A stretch of DNA of 64,000 nucleotides from Eledone cirrhosa. Taxonomy: Eukaryota. The notes below the pieces were generated by a model that was not told the origin of the DNA, searched no databases, and saw only the letters and a program-made list of their open reading frames with translations. Below, piece after piece: positions 35,475-62,772 of this stretch. Within the stretch, counting starts at the first letter, position 1; each line of letters opens with the position of its first letter. The position numbers and the translations under genes are program-made. The DNA is taken from positions 30,008,001 to 30,072,000 of the forward strand of contig OZ024746.1 in assembly GCA_964016885.1 (NCBI GenBank), given 5' to 3'.

Positions 35475-35487
35475 TATATTATAATAT
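35475..35487. repeat. Left putative target-site duplication TATATTATAATAT
   Basis: Identical 13-mer at 62760-62772; overlaps element end by 4 nt of microhomology. Confidence 0.7.
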
Positions 35488-35690: not shown

Positions 35691-35724
35691 TAAATCTTTC
35701 GTTGCACATCTGCAACATCGTCAG
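35691..35724 (-). ncRNA. Same candidate hammerhead on minus arm (also 39824-39857, 43958-43991, 48090-48123)
   Basis: Reverse complement of the motif at 50058-50091. Confidence 0.72.
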
Positions 35725-39634: not shown

Positions 39635-40135
39635 ATTTGCGTAATATTGCCAGAATTAATAACAGAACACACTCACTGTTTGGTTGGTTTTCGCTTCTCG
39701 CTGTCTTTTATATATATATATCTGCGATCTAACTTACTCGGTCCTCAATGTTGCCATTGACTGACCGGCGGTCAAAAATAATACAGATACAATATAGACA
39801 AACACATATATATATAGTTTACATAAATCTTTCGTTGCACATCTGCAACATCGTCAGTGGTGTTATATTCATTGTTCCTCCTGTTGTGTTGTATGTCTAC
39901 GCCATTTTTTTTTTTTTTTTTTTTTGTTCAGTCTGTCTATATATTTATTTATTTATTTGCTTGTTTGTTTATCTTATTTTATTTTGTCTTCTTTGCGCAT
40001 GCGTTTGCGTGTGTGTATAGTGTTATGTGTGACTAGTGTGTATAGTGTTGTGTCTGCTGGGTGACTAGTGTGTGTTTATGTGCTTGTGTATGTATTTATT
40101 TATCTCATTTTATTTAATTTAATTTACTTATTTAT

Positions 40136-43100: not shown

Positions 43101-43768
43101 TTGTAGATGGCAAATTTTGGTGGTAACTTTAGGATTTGTTGTTCTTGTTCACTGATTAAAGTGTTCCCATAGATATTTACTGTGTGGTCATTGGTAAATT
43201 CTTCCGGTAGTTTTACATCACTCATACGGATGTTGTCGATGTTATCTGGGTATTTTTGAGAATATTCGATTTTCCTTTCTTGTAGTTTTTTCTTATTCAT
43301 CCATTCTAATTTCTTCTTGAAATGCCTACAGCATTCGTTTTGAGCATATTTCGTTTCGCGTCGGATGACGCTCATGAAGTCATCTCTCTCGTTTGCTGTG
43401 ATGAGATTTCGGATTTCCTTACCGTTGATGCGTTTTTGTCTGTAGAGTGCGTTGACTTTTGTGTATGTTGTTCTTTTCATATTAACTGTTATTGTGTGTT
43501 TTAGCCGTTCAGCTTGTGTTTTGTTCAATAATAAATTATTTACTTGTTTTGATATGTTTGTTGTGTATGTTTTGGAGGAAACACAGTGTTTTAAGAAGCG
43601 GATTTGTTCTGTTGTTATTGTAGTTTTTATATAACAGAAAACAGTGTCTTTCAATAACCTTTCAGCTTGGCACAAGCTAATGCCATAGCGGCGATGAATT
43701 AGTTTTGCGAGGTTTTTTATATGAAATCGTGTGTCGAAACAGATATTGTTATATTTGGGGAGGGTCAT
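40136..43768 (-). CDS. PLE polyprotein, copy 2 (private S>N at 42696)
   Basis: Same 1210-aa ORF; GRNNS instead of GRNSS. Confidence 0.96.
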   Translation of the reverse strand: MTLPKYNNICFDTRFHIKNLAKLIHRRYGISLCQAERLLKDTVFCYIKTTITTEQIRFLKHCVSSKTYTTNISKQVNNLLLNKTQAERLKHTITVNMKRTTYTKVNALYRQKRINGKEIRNLITANERDDFMSVIRRETKYAQNECCRHFKKKLEWMNKKKLQERKIEYSQKYPDNIDNIRMSDVKLPEEFTNDHTVNIYGNTLISEQEQQILKLPPKFAIYKKINPMECKTELEKCFTKIRWNAKVNNNNNNNGSSNINNNSGYRNNSHNHNNGRKVRNSDNGNNTSDRQNNNNHNNNNNRNVNHRHSNSDHSSNNGNNTNNNNNNNHSGNNGNSTCSNINKNKKHNNSNNHNGRNNSNNNNNNGEVNNNTSSNHNNNNINAKDRNNNNHHDNNNSNTHNYDDRNNDNPLEKLFFNPADKTYKMGNIYPTRLPFNKRVCIPQQIDDETEAQFTIARNKIRQVVDRYTMRQSRPEAQQLGIKPVEGLVSLKQRTRDGEVVCLPTDKSGRMSIDSMPNYIEAMQPHITNTSEVAQLTHDGREKILNAHMMMWTDILKPSRRTANNFQASNNGIPPLYGLRKDHKTVDDPTIGPPTRPVCGANIASNYRISYFLSMVIRPIIKMSPDVCESTEDLLSRISECNKNRSLSNCIIGSMDVVSLYPSINIDFAVKRCVEMIIESEVEFCDVDTDELGLLLRLTYDTDYLDSHDLRCFCPSRPIRGRPPTITSMAKKTPIGRWIGWTKAIRTPQNTDQVRKMVAHAIGASIKTTLKGHIFKFNEKIYTQNEGAAIGVSIAGDVANLFMVWWERRLKDLLNESSIDLIMYSRYVDDINIVIRTPPLESTNKFDLERSTMESIQQIANSIHQSITVTIDFPSKHPNNRLPVLDTELWINTIDERAQILHSHYAKPMASKYLILKNSAMSSSAKFNILIADLVRVMKNVSSMCDPTEMEGHIQHFINRMQFSGYNQRDRVRVYEGAMEKYKTLIELDMKGICPLYRSKSWNSLDRARHKIGKATSWYDNQRYQSVMFVDATPGGKLANQCRKALRKTHLKIKVVEKPGTTIKSLISKTYPFKKTHCTNRKCIICKVNPRINCKTRNVVYSIRCTEGTCRNTTTTYIGETARSIGERIDQHWGELKGRKNGSVLYEHARQHHDGNIDNIEIRIISKHRNDPADRQIREASEIEIRRPKLNRKNEWNNNNTQTNNTDLREV

Positions 43769-44267
43769 ATTTGCGTAATATTGCCAGAATTAATAACAGA
43801 ACACACTCACTGTTTGGTTGGTTTTCGCTTCTCGCTGTCTTTTATATATATATATCTGCGATCTAACTTACTCGGTCCTCAATGTTGCCATTGACTGACC
43901 GGCGGTCAAAAATAATACAGATACAATATAGACAAACACATATATATATAGTTTACATAAATCTTTCGTTGCACATCTGCAACATCGTCAGTGGTGTTAT
44001 ATTCATTGTTCCTCCTGTTGTGTTGTATGTCTACGCCATTTTTTTTTTTTTTTTTTTGTTCAGTCTGTCTATATATTTATTTATTTATTTGCTTGTTTGT
44101 TTATCTTATTTTATTTTGTCTTCTTTGCGCATGCGTTTGCGTGTGTGTATAGTGTTATGTGTGACTAGTGTGTATAGTGTTGTGTCTGCTGGGTGACTAG
44201 TGTGTGTTTATGTGCTTGTGTATGTATTTATTTATCTCATTTTATTTAATTTAATTTACTTATTTAT

Positions 44268-47200
44268 TTATACTTCTCTTAGGTCAGTGTTGTTTGTTTG
44301 GGTGTTGTTGTTGTTCCACTCATTCTTTCTGTTTAGCTTTGGTCTTCTAATTTCTATTTCACTGGCCTCTCTGATTTGCCTATCTGCTGGGTCATTCCTA
44401 TGTTTAGATATTATTCTAATTTCTATGTTGTCTATGTTACCGTCATGATGTTGTCTAGCATGTTCGTATAGTACTGACCCGTTTTTTCGTCCTTTTAGTT
44501 CCCCCCAGTGTTGGTCTATCCTTTCACCTATGCTACGAGCTGTCTCACCTATGTATGTTGTTGTCGTGTTTCTGCAAGTACCCTCTGTACATCTTATGCT
44601 ATAGACTACGTTTCTAGTTTTACAGTTTATCCGGGGGTTCACCTTACATATGATACATTTCCTATTGGTACAGTGGGTTTTCTTAAAAGGGTAGGTTTTG
44701 CTGATCAGGGATTTTATGGTGGTTCCTGGCTTTTCTACCACCTTTATTTTTAAGTGGGTCTTTCTCAGGGCCTTTCTACACTGGTTAGCTAATTTCCCTC
44801 CAGGGGTGGCGTCCACAAACATGACACTCTGATATCTCTGGTTGTCGTACCATGATGTGGCCTTCCCTATCTTATGTCTAGCCCTATCTAAGCTATTCCA
44901 TGATTTGCTCCTGTATAGTGGGCAAATTCCTTTCATGTCCAGTTCTATGAGGGTCTTATACTTTTCCATGGCTCCTTCGTATACTCTGACTCTGTCTCTT
45001 TGGTTGTAGCCAGAGAACTGCATGCGGTTGATGAAGTGTTGGATGTGTCCTTCCATTTCTGTTGGGTCGCACATGCTGGACACATTCTTCATCACTCGTA
45101 CCAAATCTGCGATCAGAATATTAAACTTAGCACTACTGGACATTGCTGAGTTTTTGAGTATCAGGTATTTGGAGGCCATGGGTTTAGCATAGTGTGAGTG
45201 GAGAATTTGGGCTCTCTCGTCTATAGTGTTAATCCAGAGTTCTGTGTCTAATACAGGTAGTCTATTGTTAGGGTGTTTGGAAGGGAAGTCTATAGTTACA
45301 GTTATACTCTGGTGTATGGAATTAGCTATCTGCTGGATGCTTTCCATCGTGCTACGTTCTAAATCAAACTTGTTAGTGCTCTCTAGTGGGGGTGTTCTTA
45401 TAACTATATTGATATCGTCTACATAACGAGAGTACATGATGAGGTCTATGGAGCTTTCATTAAGGAGATCTTTAAGTCTCCTTTCCCACCATACCATGAA
45501 AAGGTTGGCAACATCGCCAGCTATGCTGACGCCGATGGCTGCTCCCTCATTTTGGGTGTAGATTTTCTCATTGAACTTAAATATGTGGCCCTTTAGGGTA
45601 GTTTTGATACTAGCCCCTATTGCATGTGCGACCATTTTTCTTACCTGATCAGTGTTTTGGGGGGTCCGTATAGCTTTGGTCCACCCAATCCACCTTCCTA
45701 TGGGAGTCTTTTTAGCCATTGAGGTTATGGTGGGGGGTCTACCTCTTATAGGTCTACTAGGGCAGAAACATCTAAGGTCATGGCTGTCTAGGTAGTCAGT
45801 GTCGTAGGTAAGTCTAAGTAGGAGGCCCAGTTCGTCTGTGTCGACGTCGCAGAACTCCACCTCACTCTCAATGATCATCTCCACACATCTTTTCACAGCA
45901 AAATCAATGTTAATGGATGGGTACAGTGACACCACATCCATGCTGCCTATTATGCAGTTGGATAGGCTCCTGTTTTTGTTGCACTCACTGATTCTGCTGA
46001 GGAGGTCCTCTGTACTTTCACATACATCTGGGGACATCTTGATTATGGGGCGTATAACCATTGAGAGGAAGTAGGAGATCCTGTAGTTGCTAGCTATATT
46101 AGCTCCGCATACAGGTCTTGTTGGTGGTCCTATTGTCGGGTCGTCGACTGTCTTGTGGTCTTTGCGGAGCCCATACAAGGGTGGTATGCCATTGTTAGAC
46201 GCCTGGAAGTTGTTGGCAGTGCGTCTGCTTGGCTTTAGGATGTCAGTCCACATCATCATGTGAGCGTTGAGGATTTTTTCTCTCCCATCGTGTGTTAGTT
46301 GTGCAACTTCGCTCGTGTTGGTGATGTGGGGTTGCATTGCCTCGATGTAGTTCGGCATGCTATCTATTGACATCCTACCAGACTTATCTGTGGGTAGACA
46401 CACTACCTCATCATCCCTTGTGCGCTGCTTGAGGCTAACCAAGCCTTCTACAGGTTTTATCCCAAGTTGTTGGGCCTCTGGTCTGCTCTGTCTCATAGTG
46501 TACCTGTCTACTACTTGTCTAATCTTATTTCTAGCTATGGTGAACTGTGCCTCCGTCTCGTCATCTATTTGTTGTGGTATGCAAACTCTTTTATTAAAGG
46601 GTAACCTCGTAGGATAGATATTACCCATCTTATATGTTTTGTCAGCTGGGTTGAAAAATAGTTTCTCTAAGGGGTTGTCGTTATTTCTATCGTCATAGTT
46701 GTGTGTGTTGCTATTATTGTTATCATGGTGGTTGTTGTTGTTTCTATCCTTAGCATTAATATTATTATTGTTATGATTGCTAGATGTATTGTTGTTTACT
46801 TCACCGTTATTGTTGTTGTTGTTACTGCTATTTCTACCATTGTGGTTGTTACTATTATTATGTTTCTTGTTTTTGTTGATGTTGCTACATGTACTATTTC
46901 CATTATTACCACTGTGGTTATTGTTGTTGTTGTTGTTCGTATTGTTACCGTTATTACTACTGTGGTCACTGTTGCTGTGTCTGTGGTTAACGTTTCTATT
47001 ATTATTATTATTGTGGTTGTTGTTGTTCTGTCTATCGCTAGTATTATTACCATTATCACTATTTCTCACTTTCCTGCCATTGTTATGGTTATGGCTGTTA
47101 TTTCTATACCCAGAGTTATTGTTTATATTACTACTACCGTTATTATTGTTGTTGTTGTTTACCTTTGCATTCCAACGTATTTTTGTGAAACACTTTTCCA

Positions 47201-47900
47201 GCTCCGTTTTGCATTCCATAGGATTAATCTTTTTGTAGATGGCAAATTTTGGTGGTAACTTTAGGATTTGTTGTTCTTGTTCACTGATTAAAGTGTTCCC
47301 ATAGATATTTACTGTGTGGTCATTGGTAAATTCTTCCGGTAGTTTTACATCACTCATACGGATGTTGTCGATGTTATCTGGGTATTTTTGAGAATATTCG
47401 ATTTTCCTTTCTTGTAGTTTTTTCTTATTCATCCATTCTAATTTCTTCTTGAAATGCCTACAGCATTCGTTTTGAGCATATTTCGTTTCGCGTCGGATGA
47501 CGCTCATGAAGTCATCTCTCTCGTTTGCTGTGATGAGATTTCGGATTTCCTTACCGTTGATGCGTTTTTGTCTGTAGAGTGCGTTGACTTTTGTGTATGT
47601 TGTTCTTTTCATATTAACTGTTATTGTGTGTTTTAGCCGTTCAGCTTGTGTTTTGTTCAATAATAAATTATTTACTTGTTTTGATATGTTTGTTGTGTAT
47701 GTTTTGGAGGAAACACAGTGTTTTAAGAAGCGGATTTGTTCTGTTGTTATTGTAGTTTTTATATAACAGAAAACAGTGTCTTTCAATAACCTTTCAGCTT
47801 GGCACAAGCTAATGCCATAGCGGCGATGAATTAGTTTTGCGAGGTTTTTTATATGAAATCGTGTGTCGAAACAGATATTGTTATATTTGGGGAGGGTCAT
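44268..47900 (-). CDS. PLE polyprotein, copy 3 (private G>D at 46411)
   Basis: Same 1210-aa ORF; RDDEV instead of RDGEV. Confidence 0.96.
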   Translation of the reverse strand: MTLPKYNNICFDTRFHIKNLAKLIHRRYGISLCQAERLLKDTVFCYIKTTITTEQIRFLKHCVSSKTYTTNISKQVNNLLLNKTQAERLKHTITVNMKRTTYTKVNALYRQKRINGKEIRNLITANERDDFMSVIRRETKYAQNECCRHFKKKLEWMNKKKLQERKIEYSQKYPDNIDNIRMSDVKLPEEFTNDHTVNIYGNTLISEQEQQILKLPPKFAIYKKINPMECKTELEKCFTKIRWNAKVNNNNNNNGSSNINNNSGYRNNSHNHNNGRKVRNSDNGNNTSDRQNNNNHNNNNNRNVNHRHSNSDHSSNNGNNTNNNNNNNHSGNNGNSTCSNINKNKKHNNSNNHNGRNSSNNNNNNGEVNNNTSSNHNNNNINAKDRNNNNHHDNNNSNTHNYDDRNNDNPLEKLFFNPADKTYKMGNIYPTRLPFNKRVCIPQQIDDETEAQFTIARNKIRQVVDRYTMRQSRPEAQQLGIKPVEGLVSLKQRTRDDEVVCLPTDKSGRMSIDSMPNYIEAMQPHITNTSEVAQLTHDGREKILNAHMMMWTDILKPSRRTANNFQASNNGIPPLYGLRKDHKTVDDPTIGPPTRPVCGANIASNYRISYFLSMVIRPIIKMSPDVCESTEDLLSRISECNKNRSLSNCIIGSMDVVSLYPSINIDFAVKRCVEMIIESEVEFCDVDTDELGLLLRLTYDTDYLDSHDLRCFCPSRPIRGRPPTITSMAKKTPIGRWIGWTKAIRTPQNTDQVRKMVAHAIGASIKTTLKGHIFKFNEKIYTQNEGAAIGVSIAGDVANLFMVWWERRLKDLLNESSIDLIMYSRYVDDINIVIRTPPLESTNKFDLERSTMESIQQIANSIHQSITVTIDFPSKHPNNRLPVLDTELWINTIDERAQILHSHYAKPMASKYLILKNSAMSSSAKFNILIADLVRVMKNVSSMCDPTEMEGHIQHFINRMQFSGYNQRDRVRVYEGAMEKYKTLIELDMKGICPLYRSKSWNSLDRARHKIGKATSWYDNQRYQSVMFVDATPGGKLANQCRKALRKTHLKIKVVEKPGTTIKSLISKTYPFKKTHCTNRKCIICKVNPRINCKTRNVVYSIRCTEGTCRNTTTTYIGETARSIGERIDQHWGELKGRKNGSVLYEHARQHHDGNIDNIEIRIISKHRNDPADRQIREASEIEIRRPKLNRKNEWNNNNTQTNNTDLREV

Positions 47901-48400
47901 ATTTGCGTAATATTGCCAGAATTAATAACAGAACACACTCACTGTTTGGTTGGTTTTCGCTTCTCGCTGTCTTTTATATATATATATCTGCGATCTAACT
48001 TACTCGGTCCTCAATGTTGCCATTGACTGACCGGCGGTCAAAAATAATACAGATACAATATAGACAAACACATATATATATAGTTTACATAAATCTTTCG
48101 TTGCACATCTGCAACATCGTCAGTGGTGTTATATTCATTGTTCCTCCTGTTGTGTTGTATGTCTACGCCATTTTTTTTTTTTTTTTTTTTGTTCAGTCTG
48201 TCTATATATTTATTTATTTATTTGCTTGTTTGTTTATCTTATTTTATTTTGTCTTCTTTGCGCATGCGTTTGCGTGTGTGTATAGTGTTATGTGTGACTA
48301 GTGTGTATAGTGTTGTGTCTGCTGGGTGACTAGTGTGTGTTTATGTGCTTGTGTATGTATTTATTTATCTCATTTTATTTAATTTAATTTACTTATTTAT

Positions 48401-49083
48401 TTATACTTCTCTTAGGTCAGTGTTGTTTGTTTGGGTGTTGTTGTTGTTCCACTCATTCTTTCTGTTTAGCTTTGGTCTTCTAATTTCTATTTCACTGGCC
48501 TCTCTGATTTGCCTATCTGCTGGGTCATTCCTATGTTTAGATATTATTCTAATTTCTATGTTGTCTATGTTACCGTCATGATGTTGTCTAGCATGTTCGT
48601 ATAGTACTGACCCGTTTTTTCGTCCTTTTAGTTCCCCCCAGTGTTGGTCTATCCTTTCACCTATGCTACGAGCTGTCTCACCTATGTATGTTGTTGTCGT
48701 GTTTCTGCAAGTACCCTCTGTACATCTTATGCTATAGACTACGTTTCTAGTTTTACAGTTTATCCGGGGGTTCACCTTACATATGATACATTTCCTATTG
48801 GTACAGTGGGTTTTCTTAAAAGGGTAGGTTTTGCTGATCAGGGATTTTATGGTGGTTCCTGGCTTTTCTACCACCTTTATTTTTAAGTGGGTCTTTCTCA
48901 GGGCCTTTCTACACTGGTTAGCTAATTTCCCTCCAGGGGTGGCGTCCACAAACATGACACTCTGATATCTCTGGTTGTCGTACCATGATGTGGCCTTCCC
49001 TATCTTATGTCTAGCCCTATCTAAGCTATTCCATGATTTGCTCCTGTATAGTGGGCAAATTCCTTTCATGTCCAGTTCTATGA
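48401..49083 (-). pseudogene. 5'-truncated PLE ORF (linker + GIY-YIG) ending at the inversion point
   Basis: Matches the C-terminal part of the ORF from IELDMKG onward; breaks at TTCTATGA|AAACCC. Confidence 0.93.
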
Positions 49084-49358
49084 AAACCCACTGTACCAAT
49101 AGGAAATGTATCATATGTAAGGTGAACCCCCGGATAAACTGTAAAACTAGAAACGTAGTCTATAGCATAAGATGTACAGAGGGTACTTGCAGAAACACGA
49201 CAACAACATACATAGGTGAGACAGCTCGTAGCATAGGTGAAAGGATAGACCAACACTGGGGGGAACTAAAGGGACAAAAAAACGGGTCAGTACTATACGA
49301 ACATGCTAGACAACATCATGACGGTAACATAGACAACATAGAAATTAGAATAATATCT
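49082..49358 (+). pseudogene. Duplicated GIY-YIG fragment at array centre
   Basis: KTHCTNRKC...IEIRIIS, repeated again from 49364. Confidence 0.92.
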
Positions 49359-49363
49359 GTACC

Positions 49364-49780
49364 AAGAAAACCCACTGTACCAATAGGAAATGTATCATAT
49401 GTAAGGTGAACCCCCGGATAAACTGTAAAACTAGAAACGTAGTCTATAGCATAAGATGTACAGAGGGTACTTGCAGAAACACGACAACAACATACATAGG
49501 TGAGACAGCTCGTAGCATAGGTGAAAGGATAGACCAACACTGGGGGGAACTAAAAGGACAAAAAAACGGGTCAGTACTATACGAACATGCTAGACAACAT
49601 CATGACGGTAACATAGACAACATAGAAATTAGAATAATATCTAAACATAGGAATGACCCAGCAGATAGGCAAATCAGAGAGGCCAGTGAAATAGAAATTA
49701 GAAGACCAAAGCTAAACAGAAAGAATGAGTGGAACAACAACAACACCCAAACAAACAACACTGACCTAAGAGAAGTATAA
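49364..49780 (+). pseudogene. 5'-truncated PLE ORF (GIY-YIG), first plus-arm unit
   Basis: Starts AAGAAAACCCAC and runs to the normal stop (DLREV*). Confidence 0.92.
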
Positions 49781-50057
49781 ATAAATAAGTAAATTAAATT
49801 AAATAAAATGAGATAAATAAATACATACACAAGCACATAAACACACACTAGTCACCCAGCAGACACAACACTATACACACTAGTCACACATAACACTATA
49901 CACACACGCAAACGCATGCGCAAAGAAGACAAAATAAAATAAGATAAACAAACAAGCAAATAAATAAATAAATATATAGACAGACTGAACAAAAAAAAAA
50001 AAAAAAAAAATGGCGTTGACATACAACACAACAGGAGGAACAATGAATATAACACCA

Positions 50058-50091
50058 CTGACGATGTTGCAGATGTGCAACGAAAGATTTA
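50058..50091 (+). ncRNA. Candidate minimal type I hammerhead ribozyme in PLE inter-ORF region (also 54190-54223, 58323-58356, 62456-62489)
   Basis: CTGACGA-T-GTTGCA-GATG-TGCAAC-GAAA-GATTTA: core boxes, 6-bp stem II, quasi-palindromic stem III; stem I weak. Confidence 0.72.
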
Positions 50092-50280
50092 TGTAAACTA
50101 TATATATATGTGTTTGTCTATATTGTATCTGTATTATTTTTGACCGCCGGTCAGTCAATGGCAACATTGAGGACCGAGTAAGTTAGATCGCAGATATATA
50201 TATATAAAAGACAGCGAGAAGCGAAAACCAACCAAACAGTGAGTGTGTTCTGTTATTAATTCTGGCAATATTACGCAAAT

Positions 50281-53200
50281 ATGACCCTCCCCAAATATAA
50301 CAATATCTGTTTCGACACACGATTTCATATAAAAAACCTCGCAAAACTAATTCATCGCCGCTATGGCATTAGCTTGTGCCAAGCTGAAAGGTTATTGAAA
50401 GACACTGTTTTCTGTTATATAAAAACTACAATAACAACAGAACAAATCCGCTTCTTAAAACACTGTGTTTCCTCCAAAACATACACAACAAACATATCAA
50501 AACAAGTAAATAATTTATTATTGAACAAAACACAAGCTGAACGGCTAAAACACACAATAACAGTTAATATGAAAAGAACAACATACACAAAAGTCAACGC
50601 ACTCTACAGACAAAAACGCATCAACGGTAAGGAAATCCGAAATCTCATCACAGCAAACGAGAGAGATGACTTCATGAGCGTCATCCGACGCGAAACGAAA
50701 TATGCTCAAAACGAATGCTGTAGGCATTTCAAGAAGAAATTAGAATGGATGAATAAGAAAAAACTACAAGAAAGGAAAATCGAATATTCTCAAAAATACC
50801 CAGATAACATCGACAACATCCGTATGAGTGATGTAAAACTACCGGAAGAATTTACCAATGACCACACAGTAAATATCTATGGGAACACTTTAATCAGTGA
50901 ACAAGAACAACAAATCCTAAAGTTACCACCAAAATTTGCCATCTACAAAAAGATTAATCCTATGGAATGCAAAACGGAGCTGGAAAAGTGTTTCACAAAA
51001 ATACGTTGGAATGCAAAGGTAAACAACAACAACAATAATAACGGTAGTAGTAATATAAACAATAACTCTGGGTATAGAAATAACAGCCATAACCATAACA
51101 ATGGCAGGAAAGTGAGAAATAGTGATAATGGTAATAATACTAGCGATAGACAGAACAACAACAACCACAATAATAATAATAATAGAAACGTTAACCACAG
51201 ACACAGCAACAGTGACCACAGTAGTAATAACGGTAACAATACGAACAACAACAACAACAATAACCACAGTGGTAATAATGGAAATAGTACATGTAGCAAC
51301 ATCAACAAAAACAAGAAACATAATAATAGTAACAACCACAATGGTAGAAATAGCAGTAACAACAACAACAATAACGGTGAAGTAAACAACAATACATCTA
51401 GCAATCATAACAATAATAATATTAATGCTAAGGATAGAAACAACAACAACCACCATGATAACAATAATAGCAACACACACAACTATGACGATAGAAATAA
51501 CGACAACCCCTTAGAGAAACTATTTTTCAACCCAGCTGACAAAACATATAAGATGGGTAATATCTATCCTACGAGGTTACCCTTTAATAAAAGAGTTTGC
51601 ATACCACAACAAATAGATGACGAGACGGAGGCACAGTTCACCATAGCTAGAAATAAGATTAGACAAGTAGTAGACAGGTACACTATGAGACAGAGCAGAC
51701 CAGAGGCCCAACAACTTGGGATAAAACCTGTAGAAGGCTTGGTTAGCCTCAAGCAGCGCACAAGGGATGGTGAGGTAGTGTGTCTACCCACAGATAAGTC
51801 TGGTAGGATGTCAATAGATAGCATGCCGAACTACATCGAGGCAATGCAACCCCACATCACCAACACGAGCGAAGTTGCACAACTAACACACGATGGGAGA
51901 GAAAAAATCCTCAACGCTCACATGATGATGTGGACTGACATCCTAAAGCCAAGCAGACGCACTGCCAACAACTTCCAGGCGTCTAACAATGGCATACCAC
52001 CCTTGTATGGGCTCCGCAAAGACCACAAGACAGTCGACGACCCGACAATAGGACCACCAACAAGACCTGTATGCGGAGCTAATATAGCTAGCAACTACAG
52101 GATCTCCTACTTCCTCTCAATGGTTATACGCCCCATAATCAAGATGTCCCCAGATGTATGTGAAAGTACAGAGGACCTCCTCAGCAGAATCAGTGAGTGC
52201 AACAAAAACAGGAGCCTATCCAACTGCATAATAGGCAGCATGGATGTGATGTCACTGTACCCATCCATTAACATTGATTTTGCTGTGAAAAGATGTGTGG
52301 AGATGATCATTGAGAGTGAGGTGGAGTTCTGCGACGTCGACACAGACGAACTGGGCCTCCTACTTAGACTTACCTACGACACTGACTACCTAGACAGCCA
52401 TGACCTTAGATGTTTCTGCCCTAGTAGACCTATAAGAGGTAGACCCCCCACCATAACCTCAATGGCTAAAAAGACTCCCATAGGAAGGTGGATTGGGTGG
52501 ACCAAAGCTATACGGACCCCCCAAAACACTGATCAGGTAAGAAAAATGGTCGCACATGCAATAGGGGCTAGTATCAAAACTACCCTAAAGGGCCACATAT
52601 TTAAGTTCAATGAGAAAATCTACACCCAAAATGAGGGAGCAGCCATCGGCGTCAGCATAGCTGGCGATGTTGCCAACCTTTTCATGGTATGGTGGGAAAG
52701 GAGACTTAAAGATCTCCTTAATGAAAGCTCCATAGACCTCATCATGTACTCTCGTTATGTAGACGATATCAATATAGTTATAAGAACACCCCCACTAGAG
52801 AGCACTAACAAGTTTGATTTAGAACGTAGCACGATGGAAAGCATCCAGCAGATAGCTAATTCCATACACCAGAGTATAACTGTAACTATAGACTTCCCTT
52901 CCAAACACCCTAACAATAGACTACCTGTATTAGACACAGAACTCTGGATTAACACTATAGACGAGAGAGCCCAAATTCTCCACTCACACTATGCTAAACC
53001 CATGGCCTCCAAATACCTGATACTCAAAAACTCAGCAATGTCCAGTAGTGCTAAGTTTAATATTCTGATCGCAGATTTGGTACGAGTGATGAAGAATGTG
53101 TCCAGCATGTGCGACCCAACAGAAATGGAAGGACACATCCAACACTTCATCAACCGCATGCAGTTCTCTGGCTACAACCAAAGAGACAGAGTCAGAGTAT

Positions 53201-53912
53201 ACGAAGGAGCCATGGAAAAGTATAAGACCCTCATAGAACTGGACATGAAAGGAATTTGCCCACTATACAGGAGCAAATCATGGAATAGCTTAGATAGGGC
53301 TAGACATAAGATAGGGAAGGCCACATCATGGTACGACAACCAGAGATATCAGAGTGTCATGTTTGTGGACGCCACCCCTGGAGGGAAATTAGCTAACCAG
53401 TGTAGAAAGGCCCTGAGAAAGACCCACTTAAAAATAAAGGTGGTAGAAAGCCAGGAACCACCATAAAATCCCTGATCAGCAAAACCTACCCTTTTAAGAA
53501 AACCCACTGTACCAATAGGAAATGTATCATATGTAAGGTGAACCCCCGGATAAACTGTAAAACTAGAAACGTAGTCTATAGCATAAGATGTACAGAGGGT
53601 ACTTGCAGAAACACGACAACAACATACATAGGTGAGACAGCTCGTAGCATAGGTGAAAGGATAGACCAACACTGGGGGGAACTAAAAGGACGAAAAAACG
53701 GGTCAGTACTATACGAACATGCTAGACAACATCATGACGGTAACATAGACAACATAGAAATTAGAATAATATCTAAACATAGGAATGACCCAGCAGATAG
53801 GCAAATCAGAGAGGCCAGTGAAATAGAAATTAGAAGACCAAAGCTAAACAGAAAGAATGAGTGGAACAACAACAACACCCAAACAAACAACACTGACCTA
53901 AGAGAAGTATAA
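50281..53912 (+). pseudogene. PLE polyprotein copy 4, 1-nt deletion frameshift before GIY-YIG
   Basis: GTAGAAAG at ~53444-53450 versus GTAGAAAAG in other copies truncates the ORF at 1061 aa; also V>M at 52249. Could be a sequencing error. Confidence 0.85.
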
Positions 53913-54412
53913 ATAAATAAGTAAATTAAATTAAATAAAATGAGATAAATAAATACATACACAAGCACATAAACACACACTAGTCACCCAGCAGACACAA
54001 CACTATACACACTAGTCACACATAACACTATACACACACGCAAACGCATGCGCAAAGAAGACAAAATAAAATAAGATAAACAAACAAGCAAATAAATAAA
54101 TAAATATATAGACAGACTGAACAAAAAAAAAAAAAAAAAAAATGGCGTAGACATACAACACAACAGGAGGAACAATGAATATAACACCACTGACGATGTT
54201 GCAGATGTGCAACGAAAGATTTATGTAAACTATATATATATGTGTTTGTCTATATTGTATCTGTATTATTTTTGACCGCCGGTCAGTCAATGGCAACATT
54301 GAGGACCGAGTAAGTTAGATCGCAGATATATATATATAAAAGACAGCGAGAAGCGAAAACCAACCAAACAGTGAGTGTGTTCTGTTATTAATTCTGGCAA
54401 TATTACGCAAAT

Positions 54413-57400
54413 ATGACCCTCCCCAAATATAACAATATCTGTTTCGACACACGATTTCATATAAAAAACCTCGCAAAACTAATTCATCGCCGCTATGGCA
54501 TTAGCTTGTGCCAAGCTGAAAGGTTATTGAAAGACACTGTTTTCTGTTATATAAAAACTACAATAACAACAGAACAAATCCGCTTCTTAAAACACTGTGT
54601 TTCCTCCAAAACATACACAACAAACATATCAAAACAAGTAAATAATTTATTATTGAACAAAACACAAGCTGAACGGCTAAAACACACAATAACAGTTAAT
54701 ATGAAAAGAACAACATACACAAAAGTCAACGCACTCTACAGACAAAAACGCATCAACGGTAAGGAAATCCGAAATCTCATCACAGCAAACGAGAGAGATG
54801 ACTTCATGAGCGTCATCCGACGCGAAACGAAATATGCTCAAAACGAATGCTGTAGGCATTTCAAGAAGAAATTAGAATGGATGAATAAGAAAAAACTACA
54901 AGAAAGGAAAATCGAATATTCTCAAAAATACCCAGATAACATCGACAACATCCGTATGAGTGATGTAAAACTACCGGAAGAATTTACCAATGACCACACA
55001 GTAAATATCTATGGGAACACTTTAATCAGTGAACAAGAACAACAAATCCTAAAGTTACCACCAAAATTTGCCATCTACAAAAAGATTAATCCTATGGAAT
55101 GCAAAACGGAGCTGGAAAAGTGTTTCACAAAAATACGTTGGAATGCAAAGGTAAACAACAACAACAATAATAACGGTAGTAGTAATATAAACAATAACTC
55201 TGGGTATAGAAATAACAGCCATAACCATAACAATGGCAGGAAAGTGAGAAATAGTGATAATGGTAATAATACTAGCGATAGACAGAACAACAACAACCAC
55301 AATAATAATAATAATAGAAACGTTAACCACAGACACAGCAACAGTGACCACAGTAGTAATAACGGTAACAATACGAACAACAACAACAACAATAACCACA
55401 GTGGTAATAATGGAAATAGTACATGTAGCAACATCAACAAAAACAAGAAACATAATAATAGTAACAACCACAATGGTAGAAATAGCAGTAACAACAACAA
55501 CAATAACGGTGAAGTAAACAACAATACATCTAGCAATCATAACAATAATAATATTAATGCTAAGGATAGAAACAACAACAACCACCATGATAACAATAAT
55601 AGCAACACACACAACTATGACGATAGAAATAACGACAACCCCTTAGAGAAACTATTTTTCAACCCAGCTGACAAAACATATAAGATGGGTAATATCTATC
55701 CTACGAGGTTACCCTTTAATAAAAGAGTTTGCATACCACAACAAATAGATGACGAGACGGAGGCACAGTTCACCATAGCTAGAAATAAGATTAGACAAGT
55801 AGTAGACAGGTACACTATGAGACAGAGCAGACCAGAGGCCCAACAACTTGGGATAAAACCTGTAGAAGGCTTGGTTAGCCTCAAGCAGCGCACAAGGGAT
55901 GGTGAGGTAGTGTGTCTACCCACAGATAAGTCTGGTAGGATGTCAATAGATAGCATGCCGAACTACATCGAGGCAATGCAACCCCACATCACCAACACGA
56001 GCGAAGTTGCACAACTAACACACGATGGGAGAGAAAAAATCCTCAACGCTCACATGATGATGTGGACTGACATCCTAAAGCCAAGCAGACGCACTGCCAA
56101 CAACTTCCAGGCGTCTAACAATGGCATACCACCCTTGTATGGGCTCCGCAAAGACCACAAGACAGTCGACGACCCGACAATAGGACCACCAACAAGACCT
56201 GTATGCGGAGCTAATATAGCTAGCAACTACAGGATCTCCTACTTCCTCTCAATGGTTATACGCCCCATAATCAAGATGTCCCCAGATGTATGTGAAAGTA
56301 CAGAGGACCTCCTCAGCAGAATCAGTGAGTGCAACAAAAACAGGAGCCTATCCAACTGCATAATAGGCAGCATGGATGTGGTGTCACTGTACCCATCCAT
56401 TAACATTGATTTTGCTGTGAAAAGATGTGTGGAGATGATCATTGAGAGTGAGGTGGAGTTCTGCGACGTCGACACAGACGAACTGGGCCTCCTACTTAGA
56501 CTTACCTACGACACTGACTACCTAGACAGCCATGACCTTAGATGTTTCTGCCCTAGTAGACCTATAAGAGGTAGACCCCCCACCATAACCTCAATGGCTA
56601 AAAAGACTCCCATAGGAAGGTGGATTGGGTGGACCAAAGCTATACGGACCCCCCAAAACACTGATCAGGTAAGAAAAATGGTCGCACATGCAATAGGGGC
56701 TAGTATCAAAACTACCCTAAAGGGCCACATATTTAAGTTCAATGAGAAAATCTACACCCAAAATGAGGGAGCAGCCATCGGCGTCAGCATAGCTGGCGAT
56801 GTTGCCAACCTTTTCATGGTATGGTGGGAAAGGAGACTTAAAGATCTCCTTAATGAAAGCTCCATAGACCTCATCATGTACTCTCGTTATGTAGACGATA
56901 TCAATATAGTTATAAGAACACCCCCACTAGAGAGCACTAACAAGTTTGATTTAGAACGTAGCACGATGGAAAGCATCCAGCAGATAGCTAATTCCATACA
57001 CCAGAGTATAACTGTAACTATAGACTTCCCTTCCAAACACCCTAACAATAGACTACCTGTATTAGACACAGAACTCTGGATTAACACTATAGACGAGAGA
57101 GCCCAAATTCTCCACTCACACTATGCTAAACTCATGGCCTCCAAATACCTGATACTCAAAAACTCAGCAATGTCCAGTAGTGCTAAGTTTAATATTCTGA
57201 TCGCAGATTTGGTACGAGTGATGAAGAATGTGTCCAGCATGTGCGACCCAACAGAAATGGAAGGACACATCCAACACTTCATCAACCGCATGCAGTTCTC
57301 TGGCTACAACCAAAGAGACAGAGTCAGAGTATACGAAGGAGCCATGGAAAAGTATAAGACCCTCATAGAACTGGACATGAAAGGAATGTGCCCACTATAC

Positions 57401-58045
57401 AGGAGCAAATCATGGAATAGCTTAGATAGGGCTAGACATAAGATAGGGAAGGCCACATCATGGTACGACAACCAGAGATATCAGAGTGTCATGTTTGTGG
57501 ACGCCACCCCTGGAGGGAAATTAGCTAACCAGTGTAGAAAGGCCCTGAGAAAGACCCACTTAAAAATAAAGGTGGTAGAAAAGCCAGGAACCACCATAAA
57601 ATCCCTGATCAGCAAAACCTACCCTTTTAAGAAAACCCACTGTACCAATAGGAAATGTATCATATGTAAGGTGAACCCCCGGATAAACTGTAAAACTAGA
57701 AACGTAGTCTATAGCATAAGATGTACAGAGGGTACTTGCAGAAACACGACAACAACATACATAGGTGAGACAGCTCGTAGCATAGGTGAAAGGATAGACC
57801 AACACTGGGGGGAACTAAAAGGACGAAAAAACGGGTCAGTACTATACGAACATGCTAGACAACATCATGACGGTAACATAGACAACATAGAAATTAGAAT
57901 AATATCTAAACATAGGAATGACCCAGCAGATAGGCAAATCAGAGAGGCCAGTGAAATAGAAATTAGAAGACCAAAGCTAAACAGAAAGAATGAGTGGAAC
58001 AACAACAACACCCAAACAAACAACACTGACCTAAGAGAAGTATAA
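54413..58045 (+). CDS. PLE polyprotein, copy 5 (private P>L 57132, I>M 57388)
   Basis: Intact 1210-aa ORF with RT and GIY-YIG motifs. Confidence 0.96.
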   Translation: MTLPKYNNICFDTRFHIKNLAKLIHRRYGISLCQAERLLKDTVFCYIKTTITTEQIRFLKHCVSSKTYTTNISKQVNNLLLNKTQAERLKHTITVNMKRTTYTKVNALYRQKRINGKEIRNLITANERDDFMSVIRRETKYAQNECCRHFKKKLEWMNKKKLQERKIEYSQKYPDNIDNIRMSDVKLPEEFTNDHTVNIYGNTLISEQEQQILKLPPKFAIYKKINPMECKTELEKCFTKIRWNAKVNNNNNNNGSSNINNNSGYRNNSHNHNNGRKVRNSDNGNNTSDRQNNNNHNNNNNRNVNHRHSNSDHSSNNGNNTNNNNNNNHSGNNGNSTCSNINKNKKHNNSNNHNGRNSSNNNNNNGEVNNNTSSNHNNNNINAKDRNNNNHHDNNNSNTHNYDDRNNDNPLEKLFFNPADKTYKMGNIYPTRLPFNKRVCIPQQIDDETEAQFTIARNKIRQVVDRYTMRQSRPEAQQLGIKPVEGLVSLKQRTRDGEVVCLPTDKSGRMSIDSMPNYIEAMQPHITNTSEVAQLTHDGREKILNAHMMMWTDILKPSRRTANNFQASNNGIPPLYGLRKDHKTVDDPTIGPPTRPVCGANIASNYRISYFLSMVIRPIIKMSPDVCESTEDLLSRISECNKNRSLSNCIIGSMDVVSLYPSINIDFAVKRCVEMIIESEVEFCDVDTDELGLLLRLTYDTDYLDSHDLRCFCPSRPIRGRPPTITSMAKKTPIGRWIGWTKAIRTPQNTDQVRKMVAHAIGASIKTTLKGHIFKFNEKIYTQNEGAAIGVSIAGDVANLFMVWWERRLKDLLNESSIDLIMYSRYVDDINIVIRTPPLESTNKFDLERSTMESIQQIANSIHQSITVTIDFPSKHPNNRLPVLDTELWINTIDERAQILHSHYAKLMASKYLILKNSAMSSSAKFNILIADLVRVMKNVSSMCDPTEMEGHIQHFINRMQFSGYNQRDRVRVYEGAMEKYKTLIELDMKGMCPLYRSKSWNSLDRARHKIGKATSWYDNQRYQSVMFVDATPGGKLANQCRKALRKTHLKIKVVEKPGTTIKSLISKTYPFKKTHCTNRKCIICKVNPRINCKTRNVVYSIRCTEGTCRNTTTTYIGETARSIGERIDQHWGELKGRKNGSVLYEHARQHHDGNIDNIEIRIISKHRNDPADRQIREASEIEIRRPKLNRKNEWNNNNTQTNNTDLREV

Positions 58046-58545
58046 ATAAATAAGTAAATTAAATTAAATAAAATGAGATAAATAAATACATACACAAGCA
58101 CATAAACACACACTAGTCACCCAGCAGACACAACACTATACACACTAGTCACACATAACACTATACACACACGCAAACGCATGCGCAAAGAAGACAAAAT
58201 AAAATAAGATAAACAAACAAGCAAATAAATAAATAAATATATAGACAGACTGAACAAAAAAAAAAAAAAAAAAAATGGCGTAGACATACAACACAACAGG
58301 AGGAACAATGAATATAACACCACTGACGATGTTGCAGATGTGCAACGAAAGATTTATGTAAACTATATATATATGTGTTTGTCTATATTGTATCTGTATT
58401 ATTTTTGACCGCCGGTCAGTCAATGGCAACATTGAGGACCGAGTAAGTTAGATCGCAGATATATATATATAAAAGACAGCGAGAAGCGAAAACCAACCAA
58501 ACAGTGAGTGTGTTCTGTTATTAATTCTGGCAATATTACGCAAAT

Positions 58546-61500
58546 ATGACCCTCCCCAAATATAACAATATCTGTTTCGACACACGATTTCATATAAAAA
58601 ACCTCGCAAAACTAATTCATCGCCGCTATGGCATTAGCTTGTGCCAAGCTGAAAGGTTATTGAAAGACACTGTTTTCTGTTATATAAAAACTACAATAAC
58701 AACAGAACAAATCCGCTTCTTAAAACACTGTGTTTCCTCCAAAACATACACAACAAACATATCAAAACAAGTAAATAATTTATTATTGAACAAAACACAA
58801 GCTGAACGGCTAAAACACACAATAACAGTTAATATGAAAAGAACAACATACACAAAAGTCAACGCACTCTACAGACAAAAACGCATCAACGGTAAGGAAA
58901 TCCGAAATCTCATCACAGCAAACGAGAGAGATGACTTCATGAGCGTCATCCGACGCGAAACGAAATATGCTCAAAACGAATGCTGTAGGCATTTCAAGAA
59001 GAAATTAGAATGGATGAATAAGAAAAAACTACAAGAAAGGAAAATCGAATATTCTCAAAAATACCCAGATAACATCGACAACATCCGTATGAGTGATGTA
59101 AAACTACCGGAAGAATTTACCAATGACCACACAGTAAATATCTATGGGAACACTTTAATCAGTGAACAAGAACAACAAATCCTAAAGTTACCACCAAAAT
59201 TTGCCATCTACAAAAAGATTAATCCTATGGAATGCAAAACGGAGCTGGAAAAGTGTTTCACAAAAATACGTTGGAATGCAAAGGTAAACAACAACAACAA
59301 TAATAACGGTAGTAGTAATATAAACAATAACTCTGGGTATAGAAATAACAGCCATAACCATAACAATGGCAGGAAAGTGAGAAATAGTGATAATGGTAAT
59401 AATACTAGCGATAGACAGAACAACAACAACCACAATAATAATAATAATAGAAACGTTAACCACAGACACAGCAACAGTGACCACAGTAGTAATAACGGTA
59501 ACAATACGAACAACAACAACAACAATAACCACAGTGGTAATAATGGAAATAGTACATGTAGCAACATCAACAAAAACAAGAAACATAATAATAGTAACAA
59601 CCACAATGGTAGAAATAGCAGTAACAACAACAACAATAACGGTGAAGTAAACAACAATACATCTAGCAATCATAACAATAATAATATTAATGCTAAGGAT
59701 AGAAACAACAACAACCACCATGATAACAATAATAGCAACACACACAACTATGACGATAGAAATAACGACAACCCCTTAGAGAAACTATTTTTCAACCCAG
59801 CTGACAAAACATATAAGATGGGTAATATCTATCCTACGAGGTTACCCTTTAATAAAAGAGTTTGCATACCACAACAAATAGATGACGAGACGGAGGCACA
59901 GTTCACCATAGCTAGAAATAAGATTAGACAAGTAGTAGACAGGTACACTATGAGACAGAGCAGACCAGAGGCCCAACAACTTGGGATAAAACCTGTAGAA
60001 GGCTTGGTTAGCCTCAAGCAGCGCACAAGGGATGGTGAGGTAGTGTGTCTACCCACAGATAAGTCTGGTAGGATGTCAATAGATAGCATGCCGAACTACA
60101 TCGAGGCAATGCAACCCCACATCACCAACACGAGCGAAGTTGCACAACTAACACACGATGGGAGAGAAAAAATCCTCAACGCTCACATGATGATGTGGAC
60201 TGACATCCTAAAGCCAAGCAGACGCACTGCCAACAACTTCCAGGCGTCTAACAATGGCATACCACCCTTGTATGGGCTCCGCAAAGACCACAAGACAGTC
60301 GACGACCCGACAATAGGACCACCAACAAGACCTGTATGCGGAGCTAATATAGCTAGCAACTACAGGATCTCCTACTTCCTCTCAATGGTTATACGCCCCA
60401 TAATCAAGATGTCCCCAGATGTATGTGAAAGTACAGAGGACCTCCTCAGCAGAATCAGTGAGTGCAACAAAAACAGGAGCCTATCCAACTGCATAATAGG
60501 CAGCATGGATGTGGTGTCACTGTACCCATCCATTAACATTGATTTTGCTGTGAAAAGATGTGTGGAGATGATCATTGAGAGTGAGGTGGAGTTCTGCGAC
60601 GTCGACACAGACGAACTGGGCCTCCTACTTAGACTTACCTACGACACTGACTACCTAGACAGCCATGACCTTAGATGTTTCTGCCCTAGTAGACCTATAA
60701 GAGGTAGACCCCCCACCATAACCTCAATGGCTAAAAAGACTCCCATAGGAAGGTGGATTGGGTGGACCAAAGCTATACGGACCCCCCAAAACACTGATCA
60801 GGTAAGAAAAATGGTCGCACATGCAATAGGGGCTAGTATCAAAACTACCCTAAAGGGCCACATATTTAAGTTCAATGAGAAAATCTACACCCAAAATGAG
60901 GGAGCAGCCATCGGCGTCAGCATAGCTGGCGATGTTGCCAACCTTTTCATGGTATGGTGGGAAAGGAGACTTAAAGATCTCCTTAATGAAAGCTCCATAG
61001 ACCTCATCATGTACTCTCGTTATGTAGACGATATCAATATAGTTATAAGAACACCCCCACTAGAGAGCACTAACAAGTTTGATTTAGAACGTAGCACGAT
61101 GGAAAGCATCCAGCAGATAGCTAATTCCATACACCAGAGTATAACTGTAACTATAGACTTCCCTTCCAAACACCCTAACAATAGACTACCTGTATTAGAC
61201 ACAGAACTCTGGATTAACACTATAGACGAGAGAGCCCAAATTCTCCACTCACACTATGCTAAACCCATGGCCTCCAAATACCTGATACTCAAAAACTCAG
61301 CAATGTCCAGTAGTGCTAAGTTTAATATTCTGATCGCAGATTTGGTACGAGTGATGAAGAATGTGTCCAGCATGTGCGACCCAACAGAAATGGAAGGACA
61401 CATCCAACACTTCATCAACCGCATGCAGTTCTCTGGCTACAACCAAAGAGACAGAGTCAGAGTATACGAAGGAGCCATGGAAAAGTATAAGACCCTCATA

Positions 61501-62178: not shown

Positions 62179-62678
62179 ATAAATAAGTAAATTAAATTAA
62201 ATAAAATGAGATAAATAAATACATACACAAGCACATAAACACACACTAGTCACCCAGCAGACACAACACTATACACACTAGTCACACATAACACTATACA
62301 CACACGCAAACGCATGCGCAAAGAAGACAAAATAAAATAAGATAAACAAACAAGCAAATAAATAAATAAATATATAGACAGACTGAACAAAAAAAAAAAA
62401 AAAAAAAATGGCGTAGACATACAACACAACAGGAGGAACAATGAATATAACACCACTGACGATGTTGCAGATGTGCAACGAAAGATTTATGTAAACTATA
62501 TATATATGTGTTTGTCTATATTGTATCTGTATTATTTTTGACCGCCGGTCAGTCAATGGCAACATTGAGGACCGAGTAAGTTAGATCGCAGATATATATA
62601 TATAAAAGACAGCGAGAAGCGAAAACCAACCAAACAGTGAGTGTGTTCTGTTATTAATTCTGGCAATATTACGCAAAT

Positions 62679-62762
62679 ATGACCCTCCCCAAATATAACA
62701 ATATCTGTTTCGACACACGATTTCATATAAAAAACCTCGCAAAACTAATTCATCGCCGCTAT
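62679..62762 (+). pseudogene. Terminal 84-nt start of the PLE ORF (pLTR 3' tail)
   Basis: MTLPKYNNIC...IHRRY then abrupt change to AT-rich flank. Confidence 0.9.
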
Positions 62763-62772
62763 ATTATAATAT
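62760..62772. repeat. Right putative target-site duplication TATATTATAATAT
   Basis: Identical 13-mer at 35475-35487; overlaps element end by 3 nt. Confidence 0.7.

What the first reader, a model, noticed from the sequence alone, without database searches (positions are those of the whole stretch)
50058..54223. One hammerhead per unit defines an exact coding monomer: candidate protein-coding circular RNA intermediate
Seen: eight copies of CTGACGA-T-GTTGCA(GATG)TGCAAC-GAAA-GATTTA, each ~190 nt upstream of the ATG and ~280 nt past the previous stop. Cleavage-to-cleavage gives a ~4133-nt RNA with the whole ORF. The array ends lie ~210 and ~270 nt beyond the predicted cleavage site, so the template cannot have been a simple cleaved linear monomer. 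Established: PLE pLTRs carry minimal type I hammerheads thought to act as dimers, and retrozymes yield circular RNAs. Inference: monomers are ligated into circles that template concatemeric cDNA.
Basis: partly seen in the sequence, partly recalled or inferred. Interest (0 to 1): 0.78.

Follow-up and report, generated by a model that had tools for sequence, protein, structure and literature searches.

The report
Penelope array from likely RNA circle
This 27-kb palindrome is built from near-identical 4.1-kb units of an abundant Penelope-like jumping gene that run unbroken through a predicted self-cutting RNA motif, which likely means one insertion was copied round and round from a circular RNA, an idea proposed in 2014 for which I found no RNA evidence either way.

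Summary
Observation confirmed, with one correction: the flagged unit (50092-54223) is the only one of six full units with a broken ORF (1-nt deletion at 53446). The eight hammerhead motifs belong to one head-to-head insertion (35484-62762, 13-bp target duplication) of a C-terminal GIY-YIG Penelope-like element with about 5,200 exact hammerhead copies in this genome. The circle idea is not new: Cervera and de la Pena proposed it in 2014, and a 2024 in vitro study favoured uncut linear RNA. The family allows a genomic test. Arms pass the cut site seamlessly (1 of 83 and 0 of 61 end there). Units within an insertion share variants (0 mosaic sites shared between loci in 18 loci; 249 shared versus 18 mosaic cases in 26 pLTR pairs), so each transposition passes through one unit. 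Two-armed insertions pair a +215 start with a +258/+273 start (41 of 43), and the downstream arm often stalls at the other's start, which suggests twin priming on one RNA. A hammerhead-cut, ligated circle is the likeliest template (0.55). Strand transfer, DNA circles and unequal crossover remain open. No RNA data were available; translation from the circle is unsupported.

The parts
35475..35487 (.). left copy of 13-bp target-site duplication TATATTATAATAT (last 4 nt are microhomology with the element end)
35484..49083 (-). left arm: partial unit from -993, 3 full units, tail ending at +207 (short-start type; +215 in most family members)
49076..49363 (+). centre junction: 283-bp extra copy of the start of the right arm (shares variant -531 G>A with it) plus a 7-nt insert that repeats nearby sequence
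49364..62762 (+). right arm: partial unit from -727, 3 full units, tail ending at +273 (long-start type)
62760..62772 (.). right copy of the 13-bp target-site duplication (first 3 nt are microhomology)
50056..50093 (+). minimal type I hammerhead motif, predicted cut after 50091; 2-bp stem I, extra U before G10.1, 6-bp stem II, self-complementary AGAUUU in place of stem III
54188..54225 (+). hammerhead motif, predicted cut after 54223
58321..58358 (+). hammerhead motif, predicted cut after 58356
62454..62491 (+). hammerhead motif, predicted cut after 62489
48088..48125 (-). hammerhead motif, predicted cut after 48090
43956..43993 (-). hammerhead motif, predicted cut after 43958
39822..39859 (-). 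hammerhead motif, predicted cut after 39824
35689..35726 (-). hammerhead motif, predicted cut after 35691
50281..53466 (+). ORF of the flagged unit, 1061 aa, frameshifted at 53446 before the linker zinc finger and endonuclease
54413..58045 (+). intact 1210-aa ORF: Asn-rich insert (aa 245-410, 50% N), RT (DKSG 505, YVDD 826), CX4CxxC linker (1077), GIY-YIG-type endonuclease (VVY 1098, YIG 1116)
58546..62178 (+). intact 1210-aa ORF
44268..47900 (-). intact 1210-aa ORF
40136..43768 (-). intact 1210-aa ORF
36002..39634 (-). intact 1210-aa ORF
62490..62762 (+). terminal stretch past the last cut site, holding both family-wide RT start zones (+207/+215 and +258/+273)

Best explanation
This is a 27-kb head-to-head array of a Penelope-like element, bounded by one target duplication, whose units were likely reverse-transcribed in successive laps from a single-unit RNA circle that the hammerhead is predicted to cut out and a host ligase would close. 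Shown in the sequence: one 13-bp duplication in TA-rich DNA; two outward-facing 3' ends at two fixed family-wide start zones; seamless passage through the cut site; units that share variants within an insertion. Inferred: a read-through transcript covering two hammerheads is translated; the protein binds near the ORF start; the RNA is cut at both motifs and ligated; the endonuclease nicks both strands of a (TA)n target; each 3' end primes RT internally, one at about +215 and one at +258/+273, usually on the same RNA; each RT runs until it drops off (about 0.7-1 stop per kb, so roughly 1 arm in 10-20 completes each further lap); the two cDNA ends join by microhomology. The circle contains the ORF, but it need not be the translated species.
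For: Cut site is not a template end: 1 of 83 first-lap arms and 0 of 61 second-lap arms end within -5..+6; 5,204 exact matches span the cut versus 5,336 for a 31-mer just downstream. Single-unit reset: in 18 multi-lap loci divergence is 0.043% within arms, 0.042% between arms, 0.32% between loci; 38 variants fixed in all covering laps of one locus, 17 fixed and shared, 0 mosaic and shared with another locus. In 26 first/second-lap pLTR pairs, 249 cases of both laps carrying the minor allele versus 18 mosaic, while 121 lap-specific differences show that pairs diverge freely after insertion. Insertion C1:14.38 Mb has the same 1-nt frameshift in 3 of 3 full units and holds 5 of the 9 genome-wide copies of a tail variant. 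A 98-hit subfamily resolves into 89 arms, 8 reaching a second copy and 1 a third, with no longer parent in the assembly. Twin priming: 41 of 43 two-armed insertions pair a short with a long start; 10 of 41 long-start arms stop at +187..+214 (p 2e-8). Second-lap arms stop in excess at +346..+170, where the priming sites would lie on a circle: 25 of 93 (p 4e-5 to 0.009 by baseline). Hammerhead core under selection: 0 of 30 columns with lineage-fixed change versus 48 in 206 flank positions (p 0.001); two compensatory stem II pairs in a related family. Precedent: retrozyme circles closed by RtcB (PMC7229834); both strands nicked and extended, protein-assisted cleavage (PMC11167929).
Against: No RNA evidence for cleavage or a circle. 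In the anole PLE, hammerhead mutants did not affect insertion in vitro and no RNA reads began or ended at the cut (PMC11167929); Naiad PLEs form tandems without canonical hammerheads (PMC8557442). Two of nine loci with a three-lap arm show changes shared by only two laps (C1:181.3 Mb, C3:90.47 Mb), which points to later DNA duplication or mixed templates. In C1:181.3 Mb one arm has a deletion in all 3 laps and the other lacks it. Four of 26 pLTR pairs look mosaic (L127, L181, L209, perhaps L118). The stalls could come from RNA structure or bound protein on any template. Second-lap stop rate is slightly higher than first-lap (1.03 versus 0.71 per kb, p about 0.05). Nothing places the circle's join at the hammerhead rather than elsewhere.
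Confidence: 0.55

Rival explanations
1. The single-unit bottleneck or the extra laps arise at the DNA level: unequal crossover between pLTRs adds units after insertion, or an excised DNA circle is transcribed into a uniform linear multimer that RT then copies.
For: Two laps share changes absent from the third in C1:181.3 Mb and C3:90.47 Mb. A deletion is unique to the three laps of one arm. The window, with 3 full units on both arms, is far outside what independent arms would give. A whole small insertion is tandemly duplicated four times at L060.
Against: Lap numbers fall off at about the rate set by RT drop-off (3 of 90 sampled first-lap arms, 422 versus 5,336 genome-wide matches, 4 of 93, 8 of 89). 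The window's substitutions are single-unit and star-like, apart from one shared by the 283-bp centre piece and its source. Single-lap changes lean G>A over C>T, 16 to 7 (p 0.03), as expected if made on cDNA. Old pLTR pairs diverge freely. A DNA circle would leave the conserved hammerhead without a role.
Confidence: 0.2
2. The template is a linear unit-length RNA (cut at the hammerheads, or with short terminal redundancy); RT primes near its 5' end and jumps or strand-transfers to the 3' end on every lap.
For: It explains the same reset and lap identity. Occasional mosaic tracts next to the hammerhead (L127, L181) could be jumps between molecules.
Against: It needs about 99% efficient, base-exact jumps: 1 of 83 and 0 of 61 arms end at the cut. 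No sharp pile-up of 5' ends at any single upstream position. PLE RTs lack RNase H (recalled).
Confidence: 0.13
3. The template is an uncut read-through RNA from an existing tandem array, and the hammerhead plays no part in templating (model of Frangieh et al. 2024). It might act in translation or RNA turnover instead.
For: In vitro, uncut RNA is the main substrate and hammerhead mutants insert normally (PMC11167929). Self-cleavage can drive cap-independent translation (PMC13725137, abstract). Seamless junctions are expected. A few mosaic pLTR pairs exist.
Against: Upstream and downstream pLTR copies would evolve as separate lineages and arrays could only shorten. Observed instead: 249 shared versus 18 mosaic cases, 0 shared mosaic sites in 18 loci, and no longer parent for the 3-copy arm of the 98-hit subfamily in this assembly.
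Confidence: 0.12

Closest known systems
Canonical C-terminal EN+ Penelope-like elements, Neptune/Nematis type (Craig et al. 2021, PMC8557442)
   Same: Single RT plus GIY-YIG ORF, CX2-5CxxC linker, partial tandems with an inverted 5'-truncated copy, a tail at one end, TA-microsatellite targets, hammerhead in the pLTR. Asn-rich ORF inserts are known from Adineta Penelopes (PMC3846280).
   Different: Three full units on both arms is extreme. The tail is 43 or 58 nt rather than 30-40. Clade not placed by a tree with reference sequences.
PAc (Poseidon of Anolis; Frangieh et al. 2024, PMC11167929)
   Same: Internal RT initiation at two sites just inside the ORF, both target strands nicked and extended, AT-rich target.
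   Different: The hammerhead here lies 190 nt upstream of the ATG rather than overlapping it. There are three start zones. The genomic copies show one short plus one long start per insertion and a single-unit reset, which the paper's linear-multimer model does not give.
Circle hypothesis for PLE hammerheads (Cervera and de la Pena 2014, PMC4209133)
   Same: The same proposal: self-cleavage, ligation, more-than-unit reverse transcription. All four listed minimal-hammerhead traits are present.
   Different: That paper offered it as tentative and without a genomic test in the parts I read; here it is tested on insertion genealogies.
Non-LTR retrozymes (PMC7229834; preprint 10.64898/2026.07.22.740005)
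   Same: Tandem units with one type I hammerhead each; circular RNAs were shown for them.
   Different: They are 170-400 nt, non-coding and non-autonomous. This unit is 4.13 kb and autonomous, and no circle has been shown.
L1 twin priming (recalled)
   Same: Both target ends prime on one RNA, giving an inversion.
   Different: Here it is the rule, at fixed start sites, and both arms can exceed one unit.

Membership tests
C-terminal EN+ PLE | RT core with DKG-like and YxDD motifs | tested here: met
   DKSG 505, YVDD 826; YVDD invariant in 52 aligned proteins; RVT_1 E 1.4e-4, below Pfam's cut-off; the full-length protein had no Pfam hit
C-terminal EN+ PLE | C-terminal GIY-YIG endonuclease with CCHH motif | tested here: met
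   VVY-x3-C-x4-C, YIGET and downstream His by inspection; Pfam GIY-YIG hits 4 of 52 alignment members weakly, not the window protein itself
C-terminal EN+ PLE | pLTR tandems, inverted 5'-truncated copy, tail at one end | tested here: met
C-terminal EN+ PLE | RT groups with PLE/TERT in a phylogeny or by fold | not tested
   no reference PLE set at hand; the structure job had not finished; best PDB profile hit was a bacterial RT, E 5.7e-6
Neptune/Nematis (versus Penelope/Poseidon, Hydra) | CX2-5CxxC linker present and CCHH retained | tested here: met
   CTNRKCIIC at aa 1077; clade traits from PMC8557442
Neptune versus Nematis | RT phylogeny | not tested
   no references
Minimal type I hammerhead of PLEs | CUGANGA and GAAA boxes, UH cut site, extra base before G10.1, G10.1-C11.1 pair, palindromic 15.2-16.2 | tested here: met
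   sequence against the traits listed in PMC4209133
Minimal type I hammerhead of PLEs | conservation and covariation | tested here: met
   0 of 30 core columns with lineage-fixed change; stem II GUCACA/UGUGAC in a family 56% identical in protein, and a G-C in place of the stem III G-U in older subfamilies
Minimal type I hammerhead of PLEs | self-cleavage (as dimer or protein-assisted) | not testable with these tools
   energy folds do not recover the active core
Retrozyme-like circular RNA replicon | circular RNA exists in vivo | not testable with these tools
   no RNA holder listed; a circle junction reads the same as a tandem junction in short reads
Non-LTR retrozyme | short, non-coding, non-autonomous unit | tested here: not met
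   4.13-kb unit with a 1210-aa ORF
Protein-coding circular RNA | translation from the circle | not testable with these tools
   two upstream ATGs at +17 and +67 precede the ORF start at +190

The most novel reading that the evidence does not exclude
An autonomous eukaryotic retrotransposon replicates through a ribozyme-made 4.1-kb RNA circle on which two reverse transcriptases, primed from the two strands of one cut target at two fixed sites, run multiple laps. One mechanism would then explain the pLTRs, tandems, inverted arm and one-sided tail of Penelope-like elements. That the circle is also the translated message is a further, weaker step (about 0.15).
Probability: 0.5. Interest if true: 0.8.

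Novelty: new member of a known kind. Interest (0 to 1): 0.56.

Why it matters
How Penelope-like elements make their tandem and inverted insertions, and what their hammerheads do, is called undefined in the field (PMC8557442), and the only in vitro system found the ribozyme dispensable (PMC11167929). This young family of several thousand copies supplies a natural experiment that rejects strict linear inheritance of tandem units and points to twin priming on a single-unit template. It also gives intact ORFs, exact start sites and a marked-donor design that would settle circle versus linear template. The element itself is an ordinary member of a known class.

Tried and rejected
RNA search: no RNA holder listed; four contig sets of unrecorded kind laid on the unit showed a genomic-looking profile that drops after about +270, and no usable splice or end signal; neither is evidence on expression. 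Rfam: no match at gathering score. Energy folding did not recover the active hammerhead as monomer or dimer. Coupled arm lengths: suggested by the window (13.6 and 13.4 kb) but not general: Spearman -0.02 in 41 pairs, 0.14 (p 0.45) in 31, and 5 near-equal pairs versus 3.2 expected; only a weak tendency for very long arms to co-occur (3 of 9, p 0.03). A transcription start near -200: seven second-lap ends lie at -193..-207 but at different bases, and first-lap arms stop there too, so not accepted. The four short repeats at L060 are a duplicated whole insertion, not a retrozyme. A 5' intron: the GTAAGT at about +86 is not kept in older subfamilies; a second donor-like site could not be tested. 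The A-tract before the hammerhead is shorter and reads AATAAAA in older copies, so it is not a poly(A) relic. Of four 'private' markers checked genome-wide, two were subfamily markers (98 and 111 hits). Structure prediction had not finished, so no fold search was run. Earlier scan notes: none near this place or like this sequence; eight listed by words did not bear on it.
Full report
Observation. The motif occurs 8 times, 4 per strand, against 0 in 100 shuffles. Cut-to-cut units are 4132-4134 nt, the ATG lies at +190 (positions are counted from the predicted cut) and the stop codon 277 nt before the next motif. Self-comparison shows a palindrome: a minus arm 49083 to 35484 and a plus arm 49364 to 62762, 99.9% alike, with a 283-bp extra piece between them. 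Both outer ends carry the same 13-bp TA-rich sequence with 3-4 nt of microhomology to the element, at +207 and +273. I read this as one insertion. Unit number rests on the assembly and was not checked against long reads.

What the element is. [quoted passage not shown] Pfam support is weak (none for the full protein; RVT_1 E 1.4e-4 for the C-terminal 731 aa and GIY-YIG in 4 of 52 aligned proteins). The closest named relative is an Octopus vulgaris RT protein at 69%, so the host is likely an octopod. These traits fit the Neptune/Nematis type of Penelope-like element as described in PMC8557442 (passages). The genome holds 5,204 exact matches to a 38-mer spanning the hammerhead and cut, 5,336 to a 31-mer at +67..+97, 422 at +347..+374 and 248 at +265..+294.

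The hammerhead. It meets the four traits listed for minimal PLE hammerheads in PMC4209133 (parts 1-2 of 4 read). Across 26 insertions of several subfamilies, 0 of 30 core columns carry a lineage-fixed change against 48 columns in 206 flank positions (Fisher p 0.001), although the core took 18 substitutions after insertion. A related family, 56% identical in protein, has two compensatory stem II pairs. Rfam finds nothing and energy folds do not give the active core. Function is inferred, not shown.

Ends and twin priming. I fetched the loci behind the first 100 of the 5,336 matches (contig C1, 0-69 Mb). Of 122 anchored copies, internal laps included, 58 end at +215, 11 at +258 and 15 at +273, nearly all into (TA)n. 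Of 43 two-armed insertions, 41 pair a short start with a long start; L048 (two long starts) and L096 (complex) were left out of the pair counts. Ten of 41 long-start arms stop at +187..+214, just past the partner's start (p 2e-8 against 0.8 stops per kb), and 5 of 23 apparent single arms hide a very short inverted long-start arm. This fits two RTs primed from the two target strands on one RNA. Arm lengths are not correlated in general.

Is the cut site a template end? No. Of 90 first-lap arms (10 of 100 rows dropped: 3 duplicates at L060, 4 internal laps, 1 duplicate-like locus, 2 in L096), 83 reach +6 and 1 ends within -5..+6. Of 93 second-lap arms (first 100 of 422 rows; dropped 5 internal laps, 1 odd fragment, 1 not fetched), 61 reach +6 and none ends there. 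These 5' ends are BLAST ends copied by hand and are good to a few bases. Second-lap arms stop in excess at +346..+170, 25 of 93 (p 4e-5 to 0.009 depending on baseline). On a circle this is where the priming sites are met again, but RNA structure or bound protein would do the same. After +67 the second lap loses arms slightly faster than the first (1.03 versus 0.71 per kb, p about 0.05, in the 92-arm version), without a cliff; 4 of 93 go on to a third lap.

Does each insertion come from one unit? In 18 multi-lap loci, chosen and biased to young copies, with low-complexity stretches masked, divergence is 0.043% within arms, 0.042% between arms and 0.32% between loci. Counting site-by-locus cases: 38 variants fixed in all covering laps and seen in no other of the 18 loci, 17 fixed and shared, 39 in part of the laps and private, 0 in part of the laps and shared. 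In 26 first/second-lap pLTR pairs (16 of 20 newly fetched pieces held the motif, plus 10 from longer loci), both laps carry the minor allele in 249 cases, 18 are mosaic and 121 are lap-specific. Under a strictly linear read-through model the two pLTR copies would be separate lineages, so something resets them at transposition; conversion after insertion is too slow, since old pairs differ freely. One insertion has the same frameshift in 3 of 3 full units and 5 of 9 genome-wide copies of a tail variant. A 98-hit subfamily gives 89 arms, 8 with a second copy and 1 with a third. A source that is polymorphic or missing from the assembly cannot be excluded.

Results against. Three of the 39 partial variants sit in two laps (C1:181.3 Mb twice, C3:90.47 Mb once). 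In C1:181.3 Mb a deletion found nowhere else in the genome is in all 3 laps of one arm and absent from the other. Pairs L127, L181 and L209, and perhaps L118, are mosaic. So DNA-level duplication, conversion or mixed templates occur in a minority. The window, with three full units on both arms, is much rarer than independent arms predict and is not fully explained. The anole study found the ribozyme unnecessary in vitro and no reads ending at the cut. No RNA run was on record.

Mechanism and odds. Most likely (0.55): a transcript spanning two hammerheads is cut and ligated, and the circle is copied by twin target-primed RT. Cleavage, ligation and circularity are inferred; RtcB ligation is borrowed from retrozymes (PMC7229834, passages). 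Rivals: DNA-level circles or unequal crossover (0.2), base-exact jumping on a linear monomer (0.13), uncut multimer (0.12). Translation from the circle has no support; two short upstream ATGs precede the ORF, though self-cleavage can promote cap-independent translation in viral RNAs (PMC13725137, abstract only).

Novelty. The circle hypothesis is in the discussion of PMC4209133. Tandem and inverted structure, tails and Asn-rich inserts are known (PMC8557442; PMC3846280, passages, which proposes self-priming on an antisense template instead). The 2026 retrozyme preprint (part 1 of 5 and passages) and an Octopus repeat annotation (PMC13282606, passages) do not treat this question in what I saw. 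Six searches listed no paper with a genomic test of lap identity or of twin priming in PLEs; I read only the papers named here, the library lacks most subscription journals, and I saw no supplements, which may bear on this claim. L1 twin priming and the lack of RNase H in PLE RTs are recalled. Verdict: a new member of a known kind whose copies make a long-open mechanism testable; interest 0.56.

Noticed in passing
window 14203-14354 (-): Old short copy of the same family (about +60..+215, 92% identical) next to a TA run.
   Followed up: partly
window 15419-15450 (+): A different minimal hammerhead-like motif (stem II GGAC/GUCC); similar motifs in L075 and L195; no RT match in window 1-35400.
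   Followed up: partly
window 718-1835, 6040-6429, 15609-15895: Near-perfect palindromes (93-96%), two of them starting at TA runs; possibly head-to-head inserts of other or non-autonomous elements.
   Followed up: no
window 31839-32549 and 34595-35344: About 730-bp inverted repeat pair (91%) just left of the insertion.
   Followed up: no
L102 (1456-2621), L054, L081, L090, L199: Related Penelope-like family (56% protein identity) with its own hammerhead showing compensatory stem II changes and a 4-bp stem I.
   Followed up: partly
L186, L215: Third hammerhead family with a perfect palindrome ACUAGU in place of stem III; inverted pair in L215.
   Followed up: no
L141-L142 (G000:C1:181.30-181.31 Mb): The two arms of one insertion share four private variants but differ by a 3' UTR deletion present in all three laps of one arm and nowhere else in the genome.
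   Followed up: yes
L037-L038 (G000:C1:14.38-14.40 Mb): Four-lap arm with the same frameshift in all three full units, so likely mobilised in trans or from a faulty RNA.
   Followed up: yes
18 multi-lap loci: Single-lap substitutions lean G>A on the sense strand (16 versus 7 C>T), mostly outside CpG; possible cytosine deamination on cDNA or RT error bias.
   Followed up: partly
L075-type, C1_75, C1_114, L127, L197, L204, L211 pairs: Several subfamilies carry a 9-nt duplication that spans the cut site (TTATGTAAA twice), which keeps the core and stem I intact.
   Followed up: no
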